Shown piece by piece: positions 1 to 64,000 of a stretch of 64,000 nucleotides of DNA. How positions within the stretch are numbered: position 1 is the stretch's first letter; each line of letters opens with the position of its first letter. Where the stretch lies: assembly GCF_963921235.1 (NCBI RefSeq), contig NC_086097.1:169634001-169698000 (forward strand), in the 5' to 3' direction. Both the position numbers and the translations under genes were made by a program. The notes beneath the pieces were generated by a model. It searched no databases. It saw nothing but the letters and a program-made list of their open reading frames with translations, and was not told the DNA's origin. The stretch is from Mobula hypostoma. Its lineage: Eukaryota.

Positions 1-1143
1 AAGAAAGGGGCTTCCCTTCCTCCACCATCAACTCTGCTCTCAAACGCATCTCCCCCGTTTCACGCACATCTGCTCTCACTCCATTCTCCCGCTACCCCAC
101 TAGGAATAGGGTTCCCCTGGTCCTCACCTACCACCCCACCAGCCTCCGGGTCCAACATAATATTCTCTGAAACTTCCGCCACCTCCAACGGGATCCCACC
201 ACCAAGCACATTTCCCCCCCCCCCGCTTTCCGCAGGGATCGCTCCCTACGCGACTCCCTTGTCCATTCGCCCCACCAATCTCCCTCCTGGCACTTACCCT
301 TGTAAGTGGAACAAGTGCTGCACATGCCCTTACACTTCCTCCCTTACCACCATTCAGGGCCCTAGACAGTCCTTCCAGGTGAGGCGACACTTCACCTGTG
401 AGTCAGCTGGGGTGATATACTGTGTCCGGTGCTCCCGATGTGGCCTTCTATATATTGGTGAGATCTGACGCAGACTGGGAGATCGTTGTGCTGAACACCT
501 ATGCTCTGTCCGCCAGAGAAAGCATCTCCCAGTGGCCACACGTTTTAATTCCACATCTCATTCCCATTCTGATATGTCTATCCACAGACTCCTCTACTGT
601 AAAGATGAAGCCACACTCAGGTTGGAAGAACAACACCTTATATTCTGTCTGGGTAGCCTCCAACCTGATGGCATGAAGATTGACTTCTTTAACTTCTGCT
701 AATGCCCCACCCCCCCCCCTCGTACCCCATCCATTACTTATGTATATACACACATTCTTTTTCTTTTTCTCTCTCTCCTTTTTCTCCCTCTGTCCCTCTG
801 ACTATACCCCTTGCCCATCCTCTGGTGGATTTCCCCCCTCCCCCTTTTGTTTCTCACTAGGCCTCCTGTCCCATGATCCTCTCATATCCCTTTTGCCAAT
901 CAACTGTCCAGCTGTTGGCTCCATCCCTCCCCCTCCTGTCTTCTCCTATCATTTTGGATCTCCCCCTCCCCTCCACTTTCAAATCTCTTACTAACTCTTC
1001 TTTCAGTTAGTCCTGACGAAAGGTCTCAGCCCGAAACGTTGACTGTACCTTTTCCTAGAGATGCTGCCTGGCCTGCTGCGTTCACCAGCAACTGATGTAT
1101 GTTGCTTGAATTTCCGGCATCTGCAGATTTCCTCGTGTTTGCG
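1..1143 (+). mobile_element. Penelope-like element (Neptune-like), 3' part: Cys-rich linker, GIY-YIG endonuclease (disrupted) and 3' tail
   Basis: GTYPCKWNKCCTCPYT...FTCESAGVIYCVRCSRCGLLYIGE followed by an in-frame TGA; same family as 27467-28669 and 51337-52950; continues upstream of the window. Confidence 0.9.
1008..1045 (+). ncRNA. Minimal type I hammerhead ribozyme motif in PLE 3' tail (mismatch in helix II)
   Basis: TAGTC-CTGACGA-A-AGGTCTCAGCCC-GAAA-CG-TT-GACTG: helix I TAGTC/GACTG, both core boxes present. Confidence 0.7.
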
Positions 1144-4384: not shown

Positions 4385-5845
4385 ATGCTAAAGATTCCAG
4401 CATTACAGTACTGGTAGCACATGTCCTGGTGGACATAATTTACATCAAAATCATCCAACTGATCAACTGACTGGTGTGTTCACGGAGATGTTTAACCTCT
4501 CATTTCAGCAATGTGTGGTACCCACCTGCTTCAAGCAGGATTCAATTATACCAGTGCCCAAGAAGAGCTTGTTGACCTGCCTCACCCAGTAATACTTGCA
4601 TCTACAGTGATGAAGTGCTTTGAGAGATTGGTGATGAAACATATCAACTACTGCCTGAGAAATGACTTAGATATACTCCAATATGCCTACTACAGCAGCA
4701 GGTCTGTAGCAAATGCTATTTCATTGGCTATTCACTCAACCCTGGAACATGTGGACAGCAAAGGTGCAAACATCAGGATGCTCTTTATCGACTACAGCTC
4801 AGTATTCGATACCATCACCGCCTCGAAATTAATCAATAAGCTTCAAGACTTTGGCCTTAATACCTCCTTGTGCAATTGGATCCTGGATGTCCTCATTTGC
4901 AGACCCCAGTCAGTTAACATTGGCAACAGCATCTCCTCCACAATCTCCATTAGTACAGGTATACCACAAGGCTGTGAGCTTAGCCCTCTGCGCTACCCAC
5001 TTTACACTTATGACTGTGTGGCCAAACACAGCTCCAAGTTCACTGTCGTAGGCCGACTCAAAGGTGGTGACAAATCAACATATAGGAGGGAGATTGAAAA
5101 CTGGCTCAGTGGTGCCACAGCAACAACCTTTTACACAATGTTAGTAAGAGCTGATTATTGACTTCAGGAGGTAGAAACCAGAGGTCCATGAACCGGTCCT
5201 CATCGGAGGAACGGAGGTGGAGAGTGTCAGCAACTTTAAATTCCTCGGTGTTATTATTTTGGAGGAATTGTCCTGGGCCTAGCACGTAAGTGCAATTACG
5301 AAGAAAGCACAGGAGTGCCTCTACTTCCTGATGAGCTTTTGGAGATTCGGCATGACATCTAAAAATTTGACAAACTTCTATGGATGTGTTGTGGAGAATA
5401 TATCGACTGGCTGCATCACAGCCTGATATGAAAACACCATACTCTCTTCTAGCTGCTGCTACCAGAAAGAAGGTACAAGAGTCTCAGGGCTTGCACCACC
5501 AGGTTTAGGAACAGTTATTACCCCTCAACCATCAGGCTCTTGAACCAAAGGGGATAACTTCACTCAACCTCACTTGTCCCATCATTGAGATGTTCCAACA
5601 ACCAATGGACTCGCTTTCGAAGACTCTCCATCTCACATTCTCGATACTGCTGATTTATTTATTATTATTACTACTTTTTGTATTTGCACAATTGTCTACA
5701 GTACTCTAGTTGAATGCCCTAGTTGGGTGGTCTTTCATTGATTCTGTTATGGTTATTATTCTGTAGATTTACTGAGCATGCTCGCAAGAAAATGAATCTG
5801 ATTTGTATATGGTGACATATATGTACTTTAACAATAAAATTTACT
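4385..5845 (+). mobile_element. Rex1/Babar-type LINE, 5'-truncated, decayed RT
   Basis: ORF 4511-5161 with [32 protein letters not shown]; 3' UTR ending AATAAAATTTACT. Confidence 0.85.
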
Positions 5846-6549
5846 GACATACGTGGTGAAATTTGTTGTTTTGTGGCAGCTGGCACAATGGCACAAGATT
5901 TTGTGGTAATGTGATTTCATGACTACTCCCAAGACTGGTTTTGTTTTAATTTCCAGCTGATTTGATTAACTGAATTCAAGTCCCACAACTGTCATAGTAG
6001 GATTTAGACTTGCTTCTTGGAATATTTAATCTGGGCATTGGATATCTCGTCCAGTGATTTAACCACTGTGCCAAACTATACCTAACATACTACTAAATAA
6101 CGCAGTTCTCTGAAGATGTAAGCAGGAGATCAAATTAGTTGAAAGAAAGGAAACCCGCCTGGACCAAGACCTGTTCTGAAAGAGATTGCAAGTATTTTGC
6201 AGCATTGCCTGGTTCCATTGTTAAATGTGTATGTCAATGATTTGAGTTTAGGACTAGAGGCATTTGTGTCCAAATCATAAATGATCTAAAAACTAAATAT
6301 AGGTAAGATCCAAGGAAGTCGCAAGGAAATACTGTAAGGTGGTCATACAGGCATGGTGATGACAAATGGAATTACAGGTTAGCAATTCTGAAATTGTATG
6401 GCTTGTGCTTGTTTTTTAAAAAATAAAAGTAGTAATTTTACTTCATTATAAAACCAGTGCAGAATTTTACAAGACATTGAAAAAAATTTTTAAACATAGA
6501 ATTAGTGTCGGTGGTTGATTGATAGTTGTTATGGACCTAAAGGCCTGCT

Positions 6550-7921
6550 GCGGTGCTATGTGAGCTGCCTTAATGACTGTCGCCCAGTAGCACTCACATC
6601 TACAGTGATGAAATGCTTTGAGAGGTTGGTCATGACTAGACTGAACTCCTGCCTCAGCAAGGACCTGGACCCATTGCAATTTGCCTATTGCCACAATAGG
6701 TCAACAGCAGATGCAATCTCAATGGCTCTTCACAGGGCTTTAGACCACCTGGATAACACAAACACCTATTTCAGGATGCTTTTCATCGATTATAGCTCAG
6801 CATTTAATACCATCATTCCCAAAGTCCTGATTGAGAAGTTACACTGGGCTTCTGTACCACCTCCTGGAATTGAACCCTTGACTTCCCAACTGGAAGACCA
6901 CAATCCCTGCAGATTGGTGATAGCATCTCCTCAGTGGCGATCAACACTGGTGCTCAGCCCACTGCTCTACTCTCTCTATACCCATGACTATGTGGCTAGG
7001 CATGGCTCAAATACCATCTATAAATTTGCTGATGGTACAACCATTGTTGGTAGAATCTCAGATGGTGACGAGAGGGTGTACAGGAGTGAGATATGCCAAC
7101 TAGTGAAGTGGTGTTGCAGCAACAACCTGGCACACAATGTCAGTAACACAAAAGAGCTGATTGTGGACTTCAGGAAGGGTAAGACAAAGGAACACCTACC
7201 AATCCTCATAGAGGGATCAGAAGTGGAGAGAGTGAGCAGTTTCAAGTTCCTGGGTGTCAAGATCTCTGAGGATCTAACCTGGTCCCAACATATCGATGCA
7301 GTTATAAAGAAGGCAAGACAGCGACTATACTTCATTGGGAGTTTGAAGAGATTTGGTATGTCAGCAAATACACTCAAAAACTTCTATAGATATACCATGG
7401 AGATCATTCTGACAGGCTGCATCACTGTCTGGTATGGGGATGGGGGCTACTGCACAGGACCGAAAGAAACTGCAGAAGGTTGTAAATTTAGTCGGCTCCA
7501 TCTTGGGTACTAGCCTACAAAGTACCTAGGGCATCTTCAAGGAGTGGTGTCTCAGAAAGGCAGTGTCCACTATTAAGGATCTCCAGCACCCAGGGCATGT
7601 CTTTTTTTGCACTGTTACCATCAGGTAGGAGATACAGAAGCCTGAAGACACACACTCAGCGATTCAGGAACAGCTTCTTCCCCTCTGCCATCTGATTCCT
7701 AATTGGACATTGAACCCTTGAACACTACCTCACTTTTTTAAAATACATTGTTTTTTACATGATTTTTAATCTATTCAATATATGTATACTGTAATTGATT
7801 TATTGTTTATTATTATTATTTTACTTTGTTTTTTTCTTCTGTATTATGTATTGCGTTGAACTGCTGCTGCTAAGTTAGCAAGTTTCACGATACATGCGGG
7901 TGATAATAAACCTGGTTCTGA
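6550..7921 (+). mobile_element. Rex1/Babar-type LINE, 5'-truncated RT
   Basis: ORF 6515-7513 with [47 protein letters not shown]; tail AATAAACCTGGTTCTGA; same family as 59175-60170. Confidence 0.9.
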
Positions 7922-11309: not shown

Positions 11310-11535
11310 TTAAAGGAATGCACACGAAATGCTGGAAAAGCTCAACAGGTCAGGCAACGTCTATAGAAATGAATAAACAGTTGATGTTTTGGGCTGAGGC
11401 CCTTCTTCAAGACTGGAAAGGATGAAGGAAGACACCAGAATAAAAAACTGTGGGGGGGGGGAGAAAGGAATTCAGCTAGAATATGATAGGTGAAGACAGG
11501 TGGGTAGGAAAAAATAAAGGGCTTGAGGGGAAGGA
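11310..11535 (-). mobile_element. Old PLE 3'-tail fragment with a decayed hammerhead motif (11378-11416)
   Basis: Reverse complement reads CAGTC-TTGAAGA-A-GGGCCTCAGCCC-AAAA-CA-TC-AACTG followed by the tgcctgacctg..gag..ttccagca tail. Confidence 0.6.
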
Positions 11536-12298: not shown

Positions 12299-12397
12299 GG
12301 TCCACTTCCCAATTCATGTGGACATTTCTGGCAAATGGCCTGGGAACAAAAAAGTAGAGCAATTGTGATGCTCAATCGTGTAATTGAAAAGGGATCA
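12299..12397 (+). CDS. PTPN2: PTPN2 coding exon (equivalent to human exon 4), 99 bp, [33 protein letters not shown]
   Basis: AG acceptor at 12297-12298 after a pyrimidine-rich tract; GTAAGT donor at 12398; phase 0/0; translation matches the PTP (Q)GPL..FW.M.W motif region. Earlier exons were not found in the window. Confidence 0.95.
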
Positions 12398-13645: not shown

Positions 13646-16092
13646 TATGTGATATCACTTTCTCTTTCAAAGTTGTTTAGGAAGCTTTTATAATCTACTT
13701 ATTTGTTTGCTGCAACTTTCTGCTCGTTGTCTACTTTTTCCTCTTTTAATGTGTTTCCCTTGCGAAAGCTGAATTGCTCCCAATGCTCAAGTTTGTTGCT
13801 TTGTCTAGCAATTGAGTATAACTTTGGATATTATACCATTTTAAATTTTTGTTAACTATGGTTGTAATCTATCTGTACTGTCTTTTGGCCTTAACAGTCA
13901 CATACTTAGAGATACTGATTGCAAGTTTCAGCTGTAAACCCTACTGTATTCCTCAGGCACAAGTTAGTCAAATAATAAGTCCCCCTAGAGACACCTCCTT
14001 ACATAACCTCTCAAGTGAACAGAGCGTTGGTGGGGCTTGATCCTGATTGATCACCTTTTATTCTTTTGGTTTTATACCAAATCTATTACATTTCCTGCAC
14101 TCATTATTTACTGTCAGCCATTGGCTATCTAATGCCACAACTACGAATGAAGCTCTCCAGTTGCTTCAGATCCCATACAACAGAATTTTTAGTGACCATC
14201 TATTCATTGCACAATACTCGGTCTAGGATAGCCTGTTCCCTGCTCATCTGCTGAACATATTGATCCAAAAAGCTAAACAAAATTAAATCAGCGCTAATAG
14301 TGCTCAGAAATTCTTCAATGTTGTGTCAAACTCAACATTGAATTAAACAATTTCTTCTGCCTGTATGTGATCCATATTCTTCCATATTCATGGGTCCATG
14401 TAAAATCCTTTTAAACACTACAATTGTGTTTGGTTTCACTACTACCCCTGGCAGCCTACCCCTGTCTATTTGGTTATAATTTTATAGATTATTATTAATT
14501 AGATTGCTATCATTCGATATAACTGTTTTACCCTTTTTGCATGCAACTTTAATTTCTAGTGTTACCAAATGCTCTCCATTATGTCTTGGGAAGTCTGTAG
14601 GCAATTGTCAATATCTTCTGGTCCTTTTGCACCACTGAGCTCCATCCAGACTCATTACACTTCATTTTATGAACTAATGTTTCTGACTAATCCTTTAATT
14701 AGCCATCCATTTCCTCTTTTTCCATTTTGCATGTGCTTCCTAACTATTTAATGTCCTTGGATATTCAACTCCAGCTTTGATTATCCTCCAACCATGTCTC
14801 TATAATGAAAATCATATTTTGTTTGTTGCTCTCTGTTTGTTCACCTTATTTATGCTTTTTTGGGTTTTTAATGTTTTTAAACATTTAATCACTTCACAGG
14901 ATTTTTCCATTGAAATCTATCATCTTGTTGCAGATCTCAAGAAACCTACTGACAACTTTACACTCATGGGCTTTGTGGGGCATTTTTGCCCTATATCAAA
15001 TACAGGATTGCTCCTGATGAAGGGCTTTCAGCCCAAAACGTTTTTTTTTAATTCCTTTCCACGGTGCTGCTTGACCTGCTGAGTTCTTTCAGCAATACAT
15101 GTTCTCAAATAATGCAGACTATTTTAAATAAAAGTTTGTCTTGAACGTACATTGGGCAGAACCATAGGTTGGGAATCTAGGTCTGTTGAAACTTTAAATG
15201 ATAAGGTAGTAAAGCTTCTTAATCAAAATACTGGTAGAAATGTTCCTGCTTGTCCAGGTAACAGCTTTGCTTATTAAGGGATATGCTTGTAAGGCAATCT
15301 AGATTTCAGTAAGATAAATACCTGTGAAAATGTTGCCATATGATGGAGTAGGAGAAGATAAGAGAATTACTTTTTTCCTATTGTTTTGAAAATTTTAGCA
15401 ATACTGAAGCAAGTAATCAGCTGCTCAACCTGTTTTCATAAATTGTATATTGAAAATGTTTATGTGAAAGCACATAACTACAGTTGACTTCCTACAATCA
15501 CTCACTAAATGTATTTACTGCAATATGGTTCCACAGGAATCCACCTGCCTTCTATTTACCTTACTCCTTTGATCAGTTTTTATTTCTGACCCAAAATAAT
15601 ACATTTTTCAGCTATTTGTACCATACTCACAACAAAATTTCTTTCAGATGCATTAATAATTTTAAAATATATTGTATGTTGTTATTCTAGAGTTTGGCTT
15701 TGTAGAGTTTCTCCAAACTTAGAGAATTAGGGCCATCACTTAATTATTGGAAAGAGCGTGGCATAACCTTCCTGATAATTTGTCCCATGAGATAGCACTA
15801 AAACTTAAAAATGTAGGCATTGTAATTAAATTTATCTTCTGCTATCAGTGTTAGTATGCAACAAGCAGCACACAGTATTATACAGATCTCTCTCCATTTA
15901 TGATTGGATAACATTGTTAATGAATTTTCCATTTTTCTTCCCTGTGGAACTGACAAGCAAAATATTGAATACAAATTGACTTCATCTAAATTCAATATCG
16001 TTAATGTAGCTGTACCATAATAACTATTTATAGCTTTTGAAATGAGTGGTTTATTGGAAAATGGAACTGAAATGTAATCTTTTGCATTGCAG

Positions 16093-16230
16093 GTAAAATG
16101 TGAAAAGTATTGGCCGAGCACGAAAGATGAAACAATGTCATATGAAGACACTGGGTTCAATCTAAGATTGTTATGTGAAGATATAAAATCATACTACACT
16201 GTGCGGCAGTTGGAATTGCAGAGAACCTCT
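16093..16230 (+). CDS. PTPN2: PTPN2 coding exon (exon 5 equivalent), 138 bp, VKCEKYWP...VRQLELQRTS
   Basis: TTGCAG acceptor; GTAAGG donor at 16231; KCxxYWP motif and ED(I/V)KSYYTV typical of PTPN1/PTPN2. Confidence 0.95.
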
Positions 16231-24210: not shown

Positions 24211-25828
24211 CAGTGGCATGCAAAAGTTTGGGCACCTCTGGTCAAAATTTCTAGTTACTGTGAATAGCTAAGTGAGTAAAAGATGACCTGATTTTCAAAA
24301 GGCATAAAGTTAAAGATGACACATTTCTTTAATATTTTGAGCAAGATTACTTTTTTATTTCTGTCTTTTACAGTTTCAAAATAACAAAAAAGGAAAAGGG
24401 CCTGAAGCAAAAGTTTGGGCACCCTCCATGGTCAGTACTTAGTAACACCCCCTTTGGCAAGTATCACAGCTTGTAAACGCTTTCTGTAGCCAGCTAAGAG
24501 TCTTTCAATTCTTGTTTGAGGAATTTTTGCCTATTCTTCCTTGCAAAAGGCTTCTAGTTCTGTGAGATTCTTGGGCCGTCTTGCATGCACTGCTCTTTTG
24601 AGGTTTATCCGCAGATTTTCGATGATGGTTAGGTCAGGGGACTGTGAGGGCCATGGAAAAACCTTCAGCTTGCGCCTCTTGACATAGTCCAGTGTGGATT
24701 TTGAGGTGTGTTTAGGATCATTATCCTGTTGTAGAAGCCATCCTCTTTTTATCTTCAGCTTTTTTACAGACTTGTTTGCTTCCAAAATTTGCTGGTATCT
24801 AATTTAATTCATTCTTCCCTCTACCAGTGAAATGTTCCCCGTGCCACTGGCTGCAACACAAGCCCAAAGCATGATCAATCCACCCCCATGCTTAAGAGTT
24901 GGAGAGGGGTTCTTTTCATGAAATTCTGCACCCTTCTTTCCTCCAAACATACCTTTGCTCATTGCAGCCAAAAAGTTCTGTTTTAACTTCATCATTCCAC
25001 AGGACTTGTTTCCAAAATGTATCAGGCTTGTTTAGATATTCCTTTGCAAACTTCTGACGCTGAATTTTGTGGTGAGGATGCAGGAAAGGTTTTCTTCTGA
25101 TGACTCTTCCATGAAGGTCATATTTGTGCAGGTGTTGCTGCACAGTAGAACAGTGCACCACCACTCCAGAGTCTGCTAAATCTTCCTGAAGGTCTTTTGC
25201 AGTCAAATGGGGTTTTGATTTGCCTTTTTCAGCAATCCTATGAGCAGTTCTCTTGGAAAGTTTTCTTGGTCTTCCAGACCTCAACTTGACTTCCACTGTT
25301 CCTGTTAACTGCCATTTCTTAATTATATTACAAACTGAGGAAAAAACTACCTGAAAACACTTTGCCATCTTCTTATAGCCTTCTCCTGTGGGCATCATTT
25401 ATTTTAATTTTCAGAGTGCTAGGCAGCTACTTAGAGGAGCCCATGGCTGCTGATGGTTGGGTCAAGATTTGAGGAGTCAGGGTATTCATAAGACTTTGAA
25501 ATTTGCATCACCTGGTCTTTCCTTACGATGATTGTGAACAAGCCATAGCCCTAACAAGCTAATTAAGGTCTGAGACCTTGGTAAAAGTTATCTGAGAGCT
25601 CAAATCTCTTGGGGTGCCCAAACTTTTGCATGGTGCTCCTTTCCTTTTTTTTCCTACTCTAAAATTATACAAAACAAAAATAATACACTAATCTTGCTTA
25701 AAATGTTGAGAAGAATGTTTCATCTTTTAAGTTTATGACTTTTGGAGATCAGTTCATCTTCCACTCACTTAACTATTCACAGTAATAGAAATTTTGACCA
25801 GGGATGCCCAAACTTTTGCATGCCACTG
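24211..25828 (-). mobile_element. Full-length Tc1-family DNA transposon of IR/DR type, 1618 bp
   Basis: TIR CAGTGGCATGCAAAAGTTTGGGCA at both ends; TA on both flanks; inner repeats of the binding site at ~24407-24424 and ~25611-25633. Confidence 0.95.
24432..25444 (-). pseudogene. Tc1 DD34E-type transposase, with frameshifts and stops
   Basis: GRPRK, WNDE, KHGGG..MLW, QQDNDPKHT, WPSQSPDL..IENL and the AKGGVTKY* terminus are split over several frames. Confidence 0.92.
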
Positions 25829-27265: not shown

Positions 27266-27563
27266 GTCTGAATCTTTAAGCTAGAAACTTAGAGATTGGG
27301 TAATGGGTTTCAAATTAGAAATGCTGGCTGGTGGTGTAGTGGCATTCACATCGGACTATGAGGTGAGTGGTCCTGGATTTGAATCCAGCTGGCTCCTTGC
27401 ACATTTTCTATCTGTACTGGGCTGAGTGTCGAGCTAGCAACTTGGTGACAAATGCTAAAGAAATGGAAACAACAGGAATTCTGCAGATGCTGGAAATTCA
27501 AGCAACATACATCAAAGTTGCTGGTGAACGCAGCAGGCCAAGCAGCATCTATAGGAAGAGGCG

Positions 27564-27601
27564 CAGTCGACGTTTCAGGCCGAGACCCTTCGTCAGGACT
27601 A
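27564..27601 (-). ncRNA. Minimal hammerhead ribozyme motif, intact core
   Basis: Reverse complement: TAGTC-CTGACGA-A-GGGTCTCGGCCT-GAAA-CG-TC-GACTG. Confidence 0.8.
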
Positions 27602-28568
27602 ACTGAAGGAAGAGTGAGTAAGGGATTTGAAAGCTGGAGGGGGAGGGGGAGATGCAAAATGATAGGAGAAGACAGGAGGGGGAGGGATAGAGCCGAGAGC
27701 TGGACAGGTGATAGGCAAAAGGGGATACGAGAGGATCATGGGACAGGAGGCCTAGGGAGAAAGACGGGGGGGGGGAGTGACCCAGAGGATGGGCAAGAGG
27801 TATATTCAGAGGGACAGAGGGAGAAAAAGGAGAGTGAGAGAAAGAATGTGTGCATAAAAATGAGTAACAGCTGGGGTACGAGGGGGAGGTGGGGCCTAGC
27901 GGAAGTTAGAGAAGTCAATGTTCGTGCCATCAGGTTGGAGGCTACCCAGACGGAATATAAGGTGTTGTTCCTCCAACCTGAGTGTGGCTTCATCTTTACA
28001 GTAGAGGAGGCCGTGGATAGACATGTCAGAATGGGAATGGGATGTGGAATTAAAATGTGTGGCCACTGGGAGATCACTTAGAGAAAGCAGGATCTCCCAG
28101 TGGCCACACATTTTAATTCTACATCCCATTCCCATTCTGACATGTCTATCCACGGCCTCCTCTACTGTAAAGATGAAGCCACACTCAGGTTGGAGGAACA
28201 ACACCTTATATTCCGTCTGGGTAGCCTCCAACCTGATGGCACGAACATTGACTTCTCTAACTTCCGCTAGGCCCCACCTCCCCCTCGTACCCCAGCTGTT
28301 ACTCATTTTTATGCACACATTCTTTCTCTCACTCTCCTTTTTCTCCCTCTGTCCCTCTGAATATACCTCTTGCCCATCCTCTGGGTCACTCCCCCCCCCC
28401 CCCCGTCTTTCTCCCTAGGCCTCCTGTCCCATGATCCTCTCGTATCCCCTTTTGCCTATCACCTGTCCAGCTCTCGGCTCTATCCCTCCCCCTCCTGTCT
28501 TCTCCTATCATTTTGCATCTCCCCCTCCCCCTCCAGCTTTCAAATCCCTTACTCACTCTTCCTTCAGT

Positions 28569-28606
28569 TAGTCCTGACGAAGGGTCTCGGCCTGAAACGT
28601 CGACTG
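28569..28606 (+). ncRNA. Minimal hammerhead ribozyme motif, intact core, GUC cleavage triplet
   Basis: TAGTC-CTGACGA-A-GGGTCTCGGCCT-GAAA-CG-TC-GACTG; helix I TAGTC/GACTG; helix II GGGT/GCCT; helix III reduced to palindromic ACGT. Confidence 0.8.
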
Positions 28607-28747
28607 CGCCTCTTCCTATAGATGCTGCTTGGCCTGCTGCGTTCACCAGCAACTTTGATGTATGTTGCTAAAGAAATGGCAAGGTTGCCACCTGATGCAC
28701 CAGAAGGTGCATTTGTAGCATTTTGCTTCCAAGTCAATATTATAATA

Positions 28748-29523
28748 CAATGGATTCTGGTGAATTGAGCCATCGGTTAATCTGGGCAGCCACTTATTTG
28801 TGACAACTCCTATAAAAACAAAAACTAAATGCCCAGGATTCCCTTTGTTTAATTGGCCCTTAACTGGGGCAGGAGGCTATTGCCAAACGGTTTCTAACTA
28901 GCATCAGTTAGACACCACACCATGCTTAGAGCAAACCGTTTTTAAATAGCATCAGTTGTATGTATATGTGTTTGTGTTCAAAAAGCAGTGATTTTTGTCA
29001 CTGATGGTTGGTGAGAAACAAGCAATAAGACAATTCATTGTGGTTTCAAGCATTCAGGCTTGGAGATGCCAGAAATGACCAGGAGTGAAAATGAAACTAT
29101 TTCACTTCCTCAACAAGTTAGGACCTACAAAGAAATTGAAAGTATTGACACTCATTGAATGTTATAATGAAATGAATGTTTGGAGGATGCAAATGCCAAA
29201 AGTATTATATGAAGACAATTCATTATCTGCACTAGGTGTATGCACTGATTTTGTTCATTTATAGTCAGCTAAAAGAACACAGCCATGTACTCTGGATGAA
29301 TTTCTTTGTTGGTAAATATTAGGAATTAATACACAGTTTTATAGTACTGTCGTGATATTGGTAGTGTTCTAAATTGTTCTGTAATTCATTTGAATACATA
29401 ACTTGTTACTTAGTTAACTGTAGTTTGTCTTTTTTATATCTTTATAACTATTTCAATGAAACTTTGGCTAACTGGGGCAAAATGTATTGGTCCCATTGTG
29501 CCCCAGTTAACTGGAATCCTCTG
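28748..29523. mobile_element. Non-autonomous TA-target DNA transposon (Tc1/mariner-pogo/Tigger-like), old
   Basis: TA|CAATGGATTCTGGTGAATTGAGCCA ... TGCCCCAGTTAACTGGAATCCTCTG|TA: imperfect ~25-bp TIRs. Confidence 0.68.
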
Positions 29524-29820: not shown

Positions 29821-30030
29821 ACTGGAGAAACCAGAGAAATCTACCACTTCCATTACACCACTTGGCCTGACTTTGGAGTACCTGAATCCCCTGCTTCATT
29901 CCTTAATTTTTTGTTCAAAGTGAGGGAGTCTGGCTGCTTGAACTCAGATTGTGGACCTACTGTTGTTCACTGCAGTGCAGGCATTGGAAGATCTGGTACT
30001 TTCTCTTTGGTTGATACATGCCTTGTTTTG
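29821..30030 (+). CDS. PTPN2: PTPN2 catalytic exon (exon 6 equivalent), 210 bp, with WPD loop and [11 protein letters not shown]-loop
   Basis: CTAG acceptor; GTGAGT donor at 30031; translates [80 protein letters not shown] is the PTPN2-type sequence (PTPN1 has FCLADTCLLL). Confidence 0.97.
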
Positions 30031-30550: not shown

Positions 30551-30712
30551 ATGGAAAAATGCAAAGATCCATCTTCTGTGGACATCAGAGAAGTACTATT
30601 AGAAATGAGAAAATACCGGATGGGACTCATACAAACTCCAGATCAGTTGAGATTTTCATACATGGCAGTTATAGAGGGAGCGAAATATATCATGGGAGAC
30701 TCATCAGTGCAG
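30551..30712 (+). CDS. PTPN2: PTPN2 coding exon (exon 7 equivalent), 162 bp, with Q-loop
   Basis: TTGCAG acceptor; GTAAAA donor at 30713; [54 protein letters not shown]. Confidence 0.96.
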
Positions 30713-51250: not shown

Positions 51251-51336
51251 CAAGATGGAGAGGCAATGCTGGAGATTTTGCAGATACATATAAAATATTG
51301 GAGGAACTCAGTAGGTCAGGGAAAATAAAAAGTCAG

Positions 51337-52950
51337 GCAACACACATCAAAGTTGCTGGTGAACGCGGCAGGCCAGGCAGCGTCTCTAGGAAGAGGTACA
51401 GTCGACGTTTTGGGCCGAGACTCTTCGTCAGGACTAACTGAAGGAAGAGTTAGTAAGAGATTTGAAAGTGGGAGGGGGAGCGGGAGATCCAAAAAGATAG
51501 GAGAAGACAGGACGGGGAGGGATGGAGCCAAGAGCTGGACAGGTGATTGGCAAAAGGGATATGAGAGGATCATGGGACAGGAGGTCCGGGGAGAAAGACC
51601 GGTGGTGGGGGGAACCAGAGGATGGGCAAGGGGTATAGTCAGAGGGACAGAGGGAGAAAAAGGAGAGAGAGAGAAAGAATGTGTGTATAAAAATAAATAA
51701 CGGATGGGGTACGAGGGGGAGGTGGGGCATTAGCAGCAGTTAGAGAAGTCAATGTTCACGCCATCAGGTTGGAGGCTACCCAGACGGAATATAAGGTGTT
51801 GTTCCTCCAACCTGAGTGTGGCTTCATCTTTACAGTAGAGGAGGCCATGGATAGACATGTCAGAATGGGAATGGGATGTGGAATTAAAATGTGTGGCCAC
51901 TGGGAGATCCTGCTTTCTCTGGCGGACAGAGCGTAGGTGTTCAGCAAAGCGGTCTCCCAGTCTGCGTTGGGTCTCGCCAATATATAGAAGGCCACATCGG
52001 GAGCACCGGACGCAGTATATCACCCCAGCCGACTCACAGGTGAAGTGTCGCCTCACCCGGAAGGACTGTCTGGGGCCCTGAATGGTGGTAAGGGAGGAAG
52101 TGTAAGGGCATGTGTAGCACTTGTTCTGCTTACAAGGATAAGTGCCAGAAGGGAGACCAGCGGGGAGGGATGGGAGGGACAAATGGACAAGGGAGTCGCG
52201 TGGGGAGCAATCCCTGTGGAAGGCAGGGGGGGGGAGGGAAAGATGTGCTTAGTGGTGGGATCCCATTGGAGGTGGCGGAAGTTACTGAGAATAATATGTT
52301 GGACCTGGAGGCTGGTGGGGTGGTAGGTGAGGACCAGGGGAACCCTATTCCTAGTGGGGTGGCGGGAGGATGGAGTCAGAGCAGATGTGCGTGAAATGGG
52401 GGAGATGCGTTTGCGAGCAGAGTTGATGGTAGAGGAAGGAAAACCCCTTTCTTTAAAAAAGGAGGACATCTCCCTCATCCTGGAATGAAAAGCCTCATCC
52501 TGAGAGCAGATGCGGCGGAGACGGAGGAATTACGAGAAGGGGATGGCATTTTTGCAAGAGACAGGGTGAGAAGAGGAATAGTCCAGATAGCTGTGAGAGT
52601 CAGTAGGCTTATAGTAGACATCAGTGGATAAGCTGTCTCCAGAGACAGAAACAGAAAGATCTAGAAAGGGGAGGGAGGTGTCGGAAATGGACCAGGTAAA
52701 CTTGAGGGCAGGGTGAAAGTCGGAGGCAAAGTTAATAAAGTCAACGAGCTCAGCATGTGTGCAGGAAGCAGCGCCAATGCAGTCGTCGATGTGACGAAGG
52801 AAAAGTGGGGGACAGATACCAGAATAGGCACGGAACATAGATTGTTCCACAAACCCAACAAAAAGACAGGCATAGCTAGGACCCATACGGGTGCCCATAG
52901 CTACACCTTTAGTTTGGAGGAAGTGGGAGGAGTCAAAGGAGAAATTATTA
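51337..52950 (-). mobile_element. Neptune-like PLE, 5'-truncated: RT C-half, linker, GIY-YIG endonuclease, 3' tail
   Basis: MGTRMGPSYACLF, FLRHIDD (YIDD mutated), TDVYYKPTD, CxxxxCxxC linker, VIY...YIGET, RFAEH, PVATHF, RLEEQ; frameshifted near the poly-C run at ~52230. Confidence 0.93.
51399..51436 (-). ncRNA. Minimal hammerhead motif, probably inactive (GAAA changed to AAAA)
   Basis: Reverse complement: TAGTC-CTGACGA-A-GAGTCTCGGCCC-AAAA-CG-TC-GACTG. Confidence 0.6.
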
Positions 52951-54109
52951 AGAGTTATATTTATGTGAACAATTAAATTCTTTAATCAAGGAAATGCAGC
53001 CAATGAGCCTAGGACATGGATTGTGAAAGCAACTGCCTCCCAACTCCGCCCATAACCCCTCCCCAATCTGACCACCTGTCCGACATTCTTCATCCTTCCT
53101 CAGTACACCAATCACCTGCCAGCCTCTGTCTCACCCTTATCCCTCTCTTCACACCGGCTACCTTTCACTCTCCGCTTTAGACCCTGACCCAGAACGTCAA
53201 CAATTTCATCACACACACACACCCCCACCCACCCACCACACACACACACTGTCCAATCCGTTGAGTTCCTCCAGCACATTATTTATTACTCCTTGGTTAC
53301 AGGGATTTCTAATTAGATAGGGATAAAAAGAAGCAACATGTGAAATATTGTTCAAAGAAATGATTGAAACTGTGAGGAGTGATGGAAAAGTCAACAACTG
53401 AGTTAACCTGAGGCACTTTCAGAGGCTGGTCTCAATACTGGTCCCAAGTTACCAGAGGGAGACAGAACTACAAATAATTCAGGTAATCCAGTAAAAAATG
53501 GTCATTAAAATAGGGGATTTCTATTTTAAAAATGGTAGTTGCAAGTGATATCTTGTTAAAAGTATAAATGATGCAGATTTTTTGGAATGTATACAAGAAA
53601 AAAAAGTTAACCAGTATTTATCAATTTCAACAAGATAGGCAACACTTCGCAACTTTCTCTGATTGAAATAGTGGAAGCAGTCATTGTCATGGCTATCCCT
53701 TGAGGTCGAGGATGATGGTCTTCATTCTGAAGAAGTGGCCTACAGAGCGAAGATGCCCGTGCATGTATTTGTTTAACGTGTACTTGATGTTGCGCTCCAA
53801 GAAGCACACGATACTTCACAAATCAACCAACTGATTCCAATGGCATGGAAACCACGATGATTGGAGCTGATGGATTTGTTGCAGCTTCATCCGACTTCAC
53901 AGCCGTTGAGTTCAAAGTAACTTCGTCCACCTGTTCCACCGTTGAGGTCTTGTTTGGATTGCTCTTTGTCAGGGACCTCACCCTCGACCTTACCGCCATG
54001 GGTGACTTCTCTTGGGATCACAGGACCACACAAGCTTCTCTACCACAACAAGGTGACAATCCACGGAGAAGCAGTAACAGCAAGAACACAATAGTAGTAA
54101 TGATTATAA

Positions 54110-60814: not shown

Positions 60815-63800
60815 TAGAAACATAGAAACATAGAAAATAGGTGCAGGAGTAGGTCATTTGGCCCTTCGAGCCTGCACCGCCATTTATTATGATCATGGCT
60901 GATCATCCAACTCAGAACCCCACCCCAGCCTTCCCTCCATACCCCCTGACCCCCATAGCCACAAGGGCCATATCTAACTCCCTCTTAAATATAGCCAATG
61001 AACTGGCCTCAACTGTTTCCTGTGGCAGAGAATTCCACAGATTCACCACTCTCTGTGTGAAGAAGTTTTTCCTAATCTCGGTCCTAAAAGGCTTCCCCTC
61101 TATCCTCAAACTGTGGCCCCTCGTTCTGGACTTCCCCAACATCGGGAACAATCTTCCTGCATCCACCCTGTCCAATCCCTTTAGGATCTTATACGTTTCA
61201 ATCAGATCCCCCCTCAATCTTCTAAATTCCAACAAGTACAAGCCCAGTTCATCCAGTCTTTCTTCATATGAAAGTCCTGCCATCCCAGGAATCAATCTGG
61301 TGAACCTTCTTTGTACTCCCTCTATGGCAAGGATGTCTTTCCTCAGATTAGGGGACCAAAACTGCACACAATACTCCAGGTGTGGTCTCACCAAGGCCTT
61401 GTACAACTGCAGTAGTACCTCCCTGCTCCTGTACTTGAATCCTCTCGCTATAAATGCCAGCATACCATTCGCCTTTTTCACCACCTGCTGTACCTGCATG
61501 CCCACTTTCAATGACCGGTGTATAATGACACCCAGGTCTCATTGCACCTCCCCTTTTCCTAATCGGCCACCATTCAGATAATAATCTGTTTTCCTATTTT
61601 TGCCACCAAAGTGGATAACTTCACATTTATCCACATTAAATTGCATCTGCCATGAATTTGCCCACTCACCCAACCTATCCAAGTCACCCTGCATCCTCTT
61701 AGCATCCTCCTCACAGCTAACACTGCCACCCAGCTTCGTGTCATCCGCAAACTTGGAGATGCTGCATTTAATTCCCTCATCCAAGTCATTAATATATATT
61801 GTAAACAACTGGGGTCCCAGCACTGAGCCTTGTGGTACCCCACTAGTCACCGCCTGCCATTCTGAAAAGGTCCCGTTTATTCCCACTCTTTGCTTCCTGT
61901 CTGCTAACCAATTCTCCACCCACACCAATACCTTACCCCCAATACCGTGTGCTTTAAGTTTGCACACTAATCTCCTGTGTGGGACCTTGTCAAAAGCCTT
62001 TTGAAAATCCAAGTATACCACATCCACCAGTTCTCCCCTATCCACTCTACTAGTTACATCCTCAAAAAATTCTATGAGATTCGTCAGACATGATTTTCCT
62101 TTCACAAATCCATGCTGACTTTGTCCGATCATTTCACTGCTTTCCAAATGTGCTGTTATCACATCCTTGATAACTGACTCCAGCAGTTTCCCCACCACCG
62201 ACGTTAGGCTAACCGGTCTATAATTCCCCGGTTTCTCTCTCCCTCCTTTTTTAAAAAGTGGAGTTACATTAGCCACCCTCCAATCCTCAGGAACTAGTCC
62301 AGAATCTAATGAGTTTTGAAAAATTATCACTAATGCATCCACTATTTCTTGGGCTACTTCCTTAAGCACTCTGGGATGCAGACCATCTGGCCCTGGGGAT
62401 TTATCTGCCTTCAATCCCTTCAATTTACCTAACACCACTTCCCTACTAACATGTATTTCGCTCAGTTCCTCCATTTCACTGGACCCTCTGTCCCCCACTA
62501 TTTCTGGAAGATTATTTATGTCCTCCTTAGTGAAGACAGAACCAAAGTAATTATTCAATTGGTCTGCCATGTCCTTGCTCCCCATAATCAATTCACCTGT
62601 TTCTGTCTGCAGGGGACCTACATTTGTCTTTACCAGTCTTTTCCTTTTTACATATCTATAAAAGCTTTTACAGTCCGTTTTTATGTTCCCTGCCAGTTTT
62701 CTCTCATAATCTTTTTTCCCCTTCCTAATTAAGCCCTTTGTCCTCCTCTGCTGAACTCTGAATTTCTCCCAGTCCTCAGTTGAGCCACTTTCTCTGGCTA
62801 ATTTGTATGCTTCTTCTTTGGAATTGATACTATCCCTAATTTCTCTTGTCAGCCACGGGTGCACTACCTTCCTTGATTTATTCTTTTGCCAAACTGGGAT
62901 GAACAATTGTTGTAGTTCATCCATGCAACCTTTAAATGCTTGCCATTGCATATCCACCGTCAATCCTTTAAGTGTCATTTGCCAGTCTATCTTAGCTAAT
63001 TCACGTCTCATACCTTCAAAGTTACCCCTCTTTAAGTTCAGAACCTTTGTTTCTGAATTAACTATGTCACTCTCCATCTTAATGAAGAATTCCACCATAT
63101 TATGGTCACTCTTACCCAAGGGGCCTCTCACGACAAGATCACTAATTAACCCTTCCTCATTGCTCAAAACCCAGTCCAGAATAGCCTGCTCTCTAGTTGG
63201 TTCCTCTACATGTTGGTTCAAAAAACTATCCCGCATACATTCCAAGAAATCCTCTTCCTCAGCACCTTTACCAATTTGGTTCACCCAATCTACATGTAGA
63301 TTGAAGTCACCCATTATAACTGCTGTTCCTTTATTGCACTCATTTCTAATTTCCTGTTTAATACCATCTCCGACTTCACTACTACTGTTAGGTGGCCTGT
63401 ACACAACTCCCACCAGCGTCTTCTGCCCCTTAGTGTTACGCAGCTCTACCCATATCGATTCCACATCTTCCCGGCTTATGTCCTTCCTTTCTATTGCGTT
63501 AATCTCTTCTTTAACCAGCAACGCCACCCCACCTCCCCTTCCTTCATGTCTATCCCTCCTGAATATTGAATATCCCTGAACGTTGAGCTCCCATCGCTGG
63601 TCACCCTGGAGCCATGTCTCTGTGATCCCAACTATATCATAATCATTAATAACAATCTGCACTTTCAATTCATCCACCTTATTACGAATGCTCCTTGCAT
63701 TGACACACAAAGCCTTCAGGCTTGCTTTTACAACTCTCTTAGCCCTTATACAATTATGTTGAAAAGTGGCCCTTTTTAATGCTTGCCCTGGATTTGTCGG

Positions 63801-64000
63801 CCTGCCACTTTTACTTTTCTCCTTTGTACTTTTTGCTTCTACCCTCACTTTACACCCCTCTGTCTCTCTGCACTGGTTCCCATCCCCCTGTTGTGAACTA
63901 ACCTCCTCACGCCTAGCCTCTTTAATTTGATTCCCACCCCCCAACCATTCTAGTTTAAAGTCACCTCAGTAGCCCCCACTAATCTCCCTGCCAGGATATT
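60815..64000 (-). mobile_element. Young, nearly intact CR1 LINE: ORF1 C-terminus, ORF2 and 3' UTR; continues beyond the window
   Basis: ORF1 end NILAGRLVGATEVTLN* (64000-63950); ORF2 with APE endonuclease and RT; tail (TTTCTATG)n at 60815-60836. Confidence 0.97.
60912..63965 (-). pseudogene. CR1 ORF2 (endonuclease-reverse transcriptase), one continuous frame with a single premature TGA at 61539-61541
   Basis: ORFs 61539-63944 and 60912-61511 are in the same frame, joined by GEVQ*DLGVIIHRSLKV; motifs NARS, ITETW, GDFN, SDH, YRPVSL, DFQKAFD, GVPQGS, FADD are all intact. Confidence 0.93.

What the first reader, a model, noticed from the sequence alone, without database searches (positions are those of the whole stretch)
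28569..28606. Minimal, dimer-dependent hammerhead ribozyme in the PLE 3' tail, in sense within a PTPN2 intron
Seen: helix I (UAGUC/GACUG), CUGACGA, an extra A, a 4-bp helix II, GAAA, then only CG before the UC cleavage site. Helix III cannot close within one molecule, but ACGU is self-complementary. Established: PLEs carry minimal type I hammerheads thought to cleave as dimers. Inference: this Neptune-like family processes its RNA by self-cleavage after C28601. Two sense copies (1008-1045 and 28569-28606) would lie in the PTPN2 pre-mRNA if the upstream exons are outside the window.
Basis: partly seen in the sequence, partly recalled or inferred. Interest (0 to 1): 0.72.

Follow-up and report, generated by a model that had tools for sequence, protein, structure and literature searches.

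The report
Masked Penelope hammerhead in PTPN2 intron
This is one of at least 45,000 genomic copies of the small hammerhead-ribozyme motif already known from Penelope-like jumping genes; this copy sits in a PTPN2 intron facing its own mirror image, so it is predicted to be zipped into double-stranded RNA and likely does not cut the host transcript.

Summary
The motif is real and of a known kind: a minimal type I hammerhead in the pseudo-LTR of a Neptune-like Penelope element (intact relatives: 1016-aa RT + Cys-linker + GIY-YIG ORF). The genome holds at least 45,476 exact copies (control 0). Distant relatives keep the core, swap both helices and keep a self-complementary helix III stub, which supports selection on a dimer-type ribozyme. 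Both sense copies do lie in PTPN2 introns. This copy has G.U instead of the usual G10.1-C11.1; the 1008 copy has an A.C mismatch there. Copy 5' ends pile up at the motif's start (41 of 94), not at the predicted cut (4 of 94), so no fossil of cleavage was found. Spliced PTPN2 exon 5-6-7 RNA exists in public runs. Cleavage itself is untested. The scan has reported this motif and fold-back layout many times in other shark/ray-like genomes. Ordinary; low interest.

The parts
28569..28606 (+). Minimal type I hammerhead motif: helix I, core CUGACGA, extra A, 4-bp helix II closed by G.U, GAAA, ACGU stub, predicted cut after C28601
27564..27601 (-). Identical motif on the mirror arm; antisense in the PTPN2 pre-mRNA and predicted partner of 28569-28606
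28080..28669 (+). Right arm: 5'-truncated 3' end of the Penelope-like element (end of the endonuclease coding region, stop at 28268-28270, then pseudo-LTR), without tail
27467..28075 (-). Left arm: inverted copy, one substitution and a 4-nt poly-C difference from the right arm, carries the tail
27467..27500 (-). 34-nt PLE tail, on this arm only
27453..27466 (+). Left target-site duplication (14 bp, of which 4 are ambiguous with the element end)
28666..28679 (+). Right target-site duplication
1008..1045 (+). Second sense copy, partly decayed (A.C at the first helix II pair, U at the cleavage base), in the intron before the exon starting at 12299
16093..16230 (+). PTPN2 coding exon upstream of the insertion (exon 5 by recalled human numbering)
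29821..30030 (+). PTPN2 catalytic exon downstream of the insertion (exon 6 by recalled numbering; WPD and HCSAG motifs)
51329..52985 (-). Longer 5'-truncated copy of the same family with RT and GIY-YIG coding remnants and its own motif (51399-51436)

Best explanation
This is a passenger copy of the minimal hammerhead motif in the pseudo-LTR of a Neptune-like Penelope retrotransposon, inserted as one arm of a head-to-head palindrome in a PTPN2 intron, where it is predicted to be locked in a ~580-bp RNA duplex and likely never cleaves. Shown: the motif, the family, the single insertion event with target duplication, the intron position, and conservation with covariation across element lineages. 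Inferred from known PLE hammerheads: in the source element the motif cannot close helix III alone and would cut after C17 only when two pseudo-LTRs pair through ACGU, probably slowly and with help from the element's protein. Inferred from copy ends: most RNAs that were reverse transcribed were not cut there. Inferred from folding: the antisense arm is transcribed about 1 kb earlier, so the sense motif would be captured as it emerges.
For: Family and ORF: (1016 aa from the first ATG, RT, CX4CxxC linker, GIY-YIG; unit about 3.5 kb with the motif at both ends). Copy number. Palindrome, one-sided tail, TSD. Fold: all 38 bases pair with 27564-27601, minimum pair probability 0.997; alone, the motif prefers folds that bury the core by 4-7 kcal/mol over the open-core form. 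Covariation: older long-loop subfamily, U2.1 goes with A1.1 in 48 of 63 and C2.1 in 13 of 37 of the first 100 of 720 matches (hand count; first 30 checked by script); 10 of 80 distant relatives carry a same-strand motif with different helices and ACGU, AGCU or ACCGGU stubs, controls 0. 5' ends: 41 of 94 at 28565-28578, 4 of 94 at 28601-28603 (2.3 expected, p=0.19). Spliced exon 5-6 and 6-7 contigs. Literature: PMC4209133, PMC11167929, PMC8557442.
Against: No cleavage assay and no raw RNA reads were available. Folding is equilibrium prediction; helicases, ADAR or fast intron turnover could change it. The runs with spliced PTPN2 are other individuals or species and may lack this insertion. Within the young family neither test of excess conservation was significant (private changes 5 of 560 core against 28 of 2072 flank, p=0.52; lineage-level variant sites 0 of 19 against 7 of 37, p=0.08). 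The in-genome compensatory change is one lineage event. 14 of 25 distant loci that extend 250 nt or more past the ORF showed no core motif in the next 600 nt.
Confidence: 0.8

Rival explanations
1. The sense copy cleaves the PTPN2 pre-mRNA at a meaningful rate by pairing with another copy (the 1008 copy or one in trans), and so lowers or tunes PTPN2 output.
For: Core intact and in sense; partners are abundant (33 of 56 spanning young copies keep an intact motif); intronic ribozyme effects are reported for CPEB3 (PMC10919898, search listing only).
Against: Predicted full pairing with the mirror arm; the 1008 copy is 27.5 kb and two exons away and has a broken first helix II pair; the active dimer scores -11.5 against -30.3 kcal/mol for the best dimer fold of the bare motif (tertiary contacts not modelled); dimers were only weakly active and monomers inactive in PMC4209133; spliced exon 5-6 contigs exist.
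Confidence: 0.06
2. In this family the motif works mainly as something other than a cutter: an RNA 5'-end, promoter-proximal or protein-binding element, or a reverse-transcriptase stop, with cleavage rare or late.
For: Copy 5' ends cluster at the start of the motif, not the cut; the dominant young lineage has G.U at 10.1-11.1 (39 of 56) and C7 (50 of 56), which favours an inactive rod; in the anole element hammerhead mutants did not affect insertion in vitro and no RNA-seq ends were seen at the cut (PMC11167929).
Against: The catalytic letters, the free N7, the UH site and the self-complementary stub are all kept across lineages about 50% identical in protein, which is what catalysis predicts; the anole motif does cleave when its protein is present. 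This rival concerns the family, not this copy, and is compatible with the best explanation for the copy.
Confidence: 0.25
3. The palindrome is an assembly fold-back artefact, so the sense copy is really solitary.
For: Arms are 99% identical; no independent read of the locus was available.
Against: Target duplication around the whole unit, tail on one arm only, a substitution and an indel between arms, and the same layout in 14 of 14 position-picked pairs with arm identities from 83 to 99%.
Confidence: 0.03

Closest known systems
Minimal hammerheads (min-HHR) in PLTRs of metazoan Penelope-like elements, Cervera and De la Pena 2014, PMC4209133 (read parts 1-2 of 4; figures and supplements not seen)
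   Same: Type I, short helix I, extra base before helix II, no closable helix III, palindromic stub, place in the pLTR, mostly single dispersed copies, some pairs on opposite strands; reported there for Xena, Poseidon and Neptune elements of fishes, coelacanth and Xenopus.
   Different: Host is shark/ray-like (inferred from the top named homologue); at least 45,476 exact copies against about 4,000 and 9,000 quoted for coelacanth and Xenopus; helix II is 4 bp and closes with G.U in this copy.
PAc (Poseidon of Anolis carolinensis), Frangieh et al. 2024, PMC11167929 (read parts 1-2 of 4)
   Same: Hammerhead in the pLTR, tail defined by two RT start sites, uncleaved RNA used as template, no end signal at the cut.
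   Different: PAc is Penelope/Poseidon clade and its ORF starts inside helix II; here the ORF starts about 170 nt after the motif's first base and carries the Cys linker.
EN+ PLE insertion layout with inverted 5'-truncated copy and one-sided tail (PMC8557442, PMC3846280; passages only)
   Same: Head-to-head inverted ends, 30-40-bp tail at one end, TSD.
   Different: Here counted: exactly one tail in 48 of 50 distinct pairs; the other 2 are internal junctions of tandem elements.
Non-LTR retrozymes (bioRxiv 10.64898/2026.07.22.740005; part 1 of 5 and passages)
   Same: pLTR-derived type I hammerheads in vertebrates, one chondrichthyan sampled.
   Different: Retrozymes are sense tandem arrays; this is an inverted, truncated end of an autonomous element.

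Membership tests
PLE minimal hammerhead (min-HHR) | Core CUGANGA and GAAA with UH cleavage site | tested here: met
   N7 is the one free core position across 139 aligned copies
PLE minimal hammerhead (min-HHR) | Helices I and II present and supported by covariation | tested here: met
   not significant within the young family alone
PLE minimal hammerhead (min-HHR) | No closable helix III; self-complementary stub | tested here: met
   ACGU here; ACGU, AGCU, ACCGGU in relatives
PLE minimal hammerhead (min-HHR) | Extra base between A9 and 10.1 | tested here: met
   A28581; 136 of 138 copies
PLE minimal hammerhead (min-HHR) | G10.1-C11.1 (characteristic noted in PMC4209133 as outside its descriptor, so not defining) | tested here: not met
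   G.U wobble in this copy and in 39 of 56 young copies; G-C in 17 of 56
PLE minimal hammerhead (min-HHR) | Located in the pLTR of a PLE | tested here: met
PLE minimal hammerhead (min-HHR) | Self-cleavage as a dimer | not testable with these tools
   only assembled contigs were offered
EN+ Penelope-like element | Single ORF with RT and C-terminal GIY-YIG | tested here: met
   L183 ORF: RVT_1 E 7e-5 and GIY-YIG E 1e-3, both below Pfam cut-offs; window copy GIY-YIG above cut-off; DKG and YIDD motifs
EN+ Penelope-like element | pLTRs from partial tandems, inverted truncated copy, tail | tested here: met
Neptune clade | CX2-5CxxC linker between RT and EN (shared with Nematis, PMC8557442) | tested here: met
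   CX4CxxC at residue 910 of the L183 frame
Neptune clade | RT tree placement with named Neptune elements rather than Nematis | not tested
   no clade-named reference among the 120 listed homologues

The most novel reading that the evidence does not exclude
With tens of thousands of intact motifs, solitary sense copies in long introns of this genome find partners in cis or trans and cut nascent host RNAs often enough to be a genome-wide load, while the fold-back insertion mode (about half of young copies) self-silences the ribozyme and so spares the host; the strict one-tail-per-pair rule would be the fossil of twin priming from the two RT start sites.
Probability: 0.1. Interest if true: 0.6.

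Novelty: new member of a known kind. Interest (0 to 1): 0.2.

Why it matters
As it stands it matters little: the motif class, its place in Penelope-like elements and the inverted layout are in print. The family is a convenient test system for the open question of what PLE hammerheads do, since it has intact full-length copies, natural variants at 10.1-11.1 and N7, and tens of thousands of insertions whose ends can be read as a record of which RNAs were copied. No paper on hammerheads of cartilaginous-fish PLEs turned up in two searches, but one chondrichthyan was sampled in the 2026 retrozyme preprint and subscription papers and Repbase were not searchable.

Tried and rejected
Rfam scan: no hammerhead family hit. 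First fuzzy-search script timed out. Run search: no RNA holder listed, 22 runs, all contigs, so RNA ends, strand and level could not be read; tables of molecule ends were empty and this is no evidence either way. A possible intron ending at the pyrimidine tract and CAG just before helix I (as in D. virilis Penelope): no GT..AG joint inside the element among the 15 shown of 179 joints or the 15 of 31; inconclusive. One search (base before the core not C) returned mostly point mutants and junctions of the young family, no second family. One search found 2 matches; one search sampled no old-subfamily copy in 100 rows. Position-picked alignment gave only weak helix I covariation (5 of 15 against 7 of 94, p=0.011, confounded by age). 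NCBIfam gave nothing for the ORF. Search for an empty allele of the site found only the locus itself at full identity. Lunse et al. (PMC5785218) is not held; seen only as cited in PMC6765202. Two look-ups on the effect of changing G10.1-C11.1 gave no rate data; that G.U weakens cleavage is recalled, not shown.

Full report
Observation. A plain mismatch scan of the window finds five copies with up to 14 mismatches allowed: sense at 1008 and 28569, antisense at 27564 (identical), 51399 and 11378. Rfam has no hammerhead hit. A 34-nt pattern has 45,476 exact genomic matches and the adjacent downstream 34-mer 56,547, with reversed controls at 0. An iterated profile found 197 hits at E<=0.001, young and old, in 964 kb picked by position.

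The element. The window's copy at 51329-52985 has a GIY-YIG remnant and its RT piece led to long open frames elsewhere. Of 20 stretches fetched around the longest frames, six hold a pseudo-LTR upstream of the ORF start as well as downstream. L183 has 1016 codons from the first ATG, with DKG, YIDD, a CX4CxxC linker and GIY-YIG. The unit is about 3.5 kb and the motif begins about 170 nt before the ATG and about 300 nt after the stop. The Cys linker marks Neptune or Nematis (PMC8557442, passages); I did not build a tree against named references. The best named homologue is from Chiloscyllium punctatum at 72%, so the host is likely a cartilaginous fish.

The host gene. The exon at 29821-30030 scores best with PTPN2 (132 bits against 125 for PTPN1). 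Further exons lie at 12299, 16093-16230, 30551-30712, 38.2 kb and 40.4 kb, and two more about 0.75 and 29 kb before the window. All four runs laid join the 29821 and 30551 exons at a GT..AG intron, and in two of them the listed loose end before 29821 equals 16201-16230, the end of the exon upstream of the insertion. These runs are guessed to be RNA and need not carry the insertion.

28080-28669 and 27467-28075 are head-to-head arms that differ by one substitution and four C's; the left arm has the 34-nt tail, the right has none, and a 10-14-bp duplication frames the whole. This is the norm for the family: 28 of 57 young 3'-end copies in the position-picked sample are in such pairs, 14 of 14 with exactly one tail, and 34 of 36 distinct pairs in the other loci likewise, the 2 exceptions being tandem junctions. 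The layout is described in PMC8557442 and PMC3846280 (passages). Folding 27441-28720 pairs all 38 motif bases with 27564-27601 at probability 0.997 or more.

Is the motif under selection? Within the young family copies decay evenly: core 5 of 560 private changes against 28 of 2072 in flanks (p=0.52), and lineage-level variants at 0 of 19 core and non-CpG helix I sites against 7 of 37 flank sites (p=0.08); one CpG site of helix I was set aside as decay. 33 of 56 spanning copies are intact. Across subfamilies conservation starts at helix I and N7 is free (hits were chosen by a profile that includes the motif, which biases this). An older subfamily with a longer loop II has U-A in place of C-G next to the core (hand counts of the first 100 of 973 and 720 matches). 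Among 80 metagenomic relatives, 10 carry a same-strand motif passing a strict descriptor, with unrelated helix sequences and always a self-complementary stub; reversed and shuffled controls gave 0. With a looser pattern 11 of 25 loci long enough showed a core after the ORF, 9 of them at 91-148 nt, one of the 11 doubtful; 14 showed none.

Does the family cleave? Not shown. As a monomer the motif prefers a rod or an upstream hairpin that buries the core, and its fold is no more stable than shuffles (z -1.2 to +0.3). PMC4209133 found no monomer activity and low dimer activity for a schistosome motif (parts 1-2 of 4 read); PMC11167929 found cleavage only with the element's protein, no need for it in insertion, and no RNA-seq ends at the cut (parts 1-2 of 4). 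Here, of 164 scored copies chosen by a downstream anchor, 94 end within 28496-28620; 41 end at 28565-28578 and 4 at 28601-28603. I ran this test after earlier scan notes suggested ends cluster before the motif. Ends called in fold-back pairs are blurred by junction homology, and a few loci may be counted twice. The result says most copied RNAs were uncut at C28601; it does not exclude cleavage of a minority or at a late step.

Mechanism. A source element with tandem pseudo-LTRs is transcribed; its hammerheads would cut slowly as a dimer through ACGU, likely aided by its protein (inferred). The protein nicks both strands about 13-14 bp apart and copies the RNA end twice from two start sites, giving one tailed and one tail-less arm (inferred from PMC11167929). 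The result in PTPN2 is a dead, self-masking insertion (predicted). The 1008 copy is a poor partner: distant and mismatched at the first helix II pair.

Verdict. Real, known kind, new member. The scan has met the same motif and fold-back stumps in other shark/ray-like genomes (28 notes in at least 17 genomes). Supplements of the papers were not read and may list chondrichthyan motifs. Interest 0.2.

Noticed in passing
window 28547-28567 (and 986-1006): A branch-point-like heptamer, pyrimidine tract and CAG sit directly before helix I, like the intron end reported at helix I in D. virilis Penelope; a sense copy could bring a cryptic splice acceptor. No spliced joint seen among the joints shown.
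   Followed up: partly
window 27467-28669 and 49 other pairs: Exactly one tail per head-to-head pair in 48 of 50 distinct pairs, shared flank strings mostly 12-15 bp; about half of young copies are in such pairs.
   Followed up: yes
young family, position equivalent to window 28565-28578: 41 of 94 nearby 5' ends fall in these 14 nt at the start of the motif: a transcription start or an RT stop.
   Followed up: partly
window 28593 and 28578: The dominant young lineage carries U at 11.1 (39 of 56) and C at N7 (50 of 56), both CpG-linked positions; both would favour a less active fold.
   Followed up: partly
L183 (G000:C1:223388646-223398645), L193, L194, L195, L197, L184: Full-length copies about 98% alike, one with an uninterrupted 1016-codon ORF: the family is recently or still active.
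   Followed up: partly
window 11378-11415 (-), about 15010-15090 (+), 51300-51320 (-): Older, decayed subfamily copies of the same pLTR end inside or near PTPN2.
   Followed up: partly
window 28909-29090: Another repeat with high summed contig depth in the laid runs, not identified.
   Followed up: no
window 61539-63965 (-), 4496-5161, 6506-7513, 24916-25398 (-): LINE RT/endonuclease remnants and a Tc1/Sleeping Beauty-type transposase fragment.
   Followed up: no
L316, L320, L321, L326, L333, L344, L354, L366, L367, L384: Metagenomic PLE relatives with their own minimal hammerheads, including AGCU and ACCGGU stubs.
   Followed up: yes
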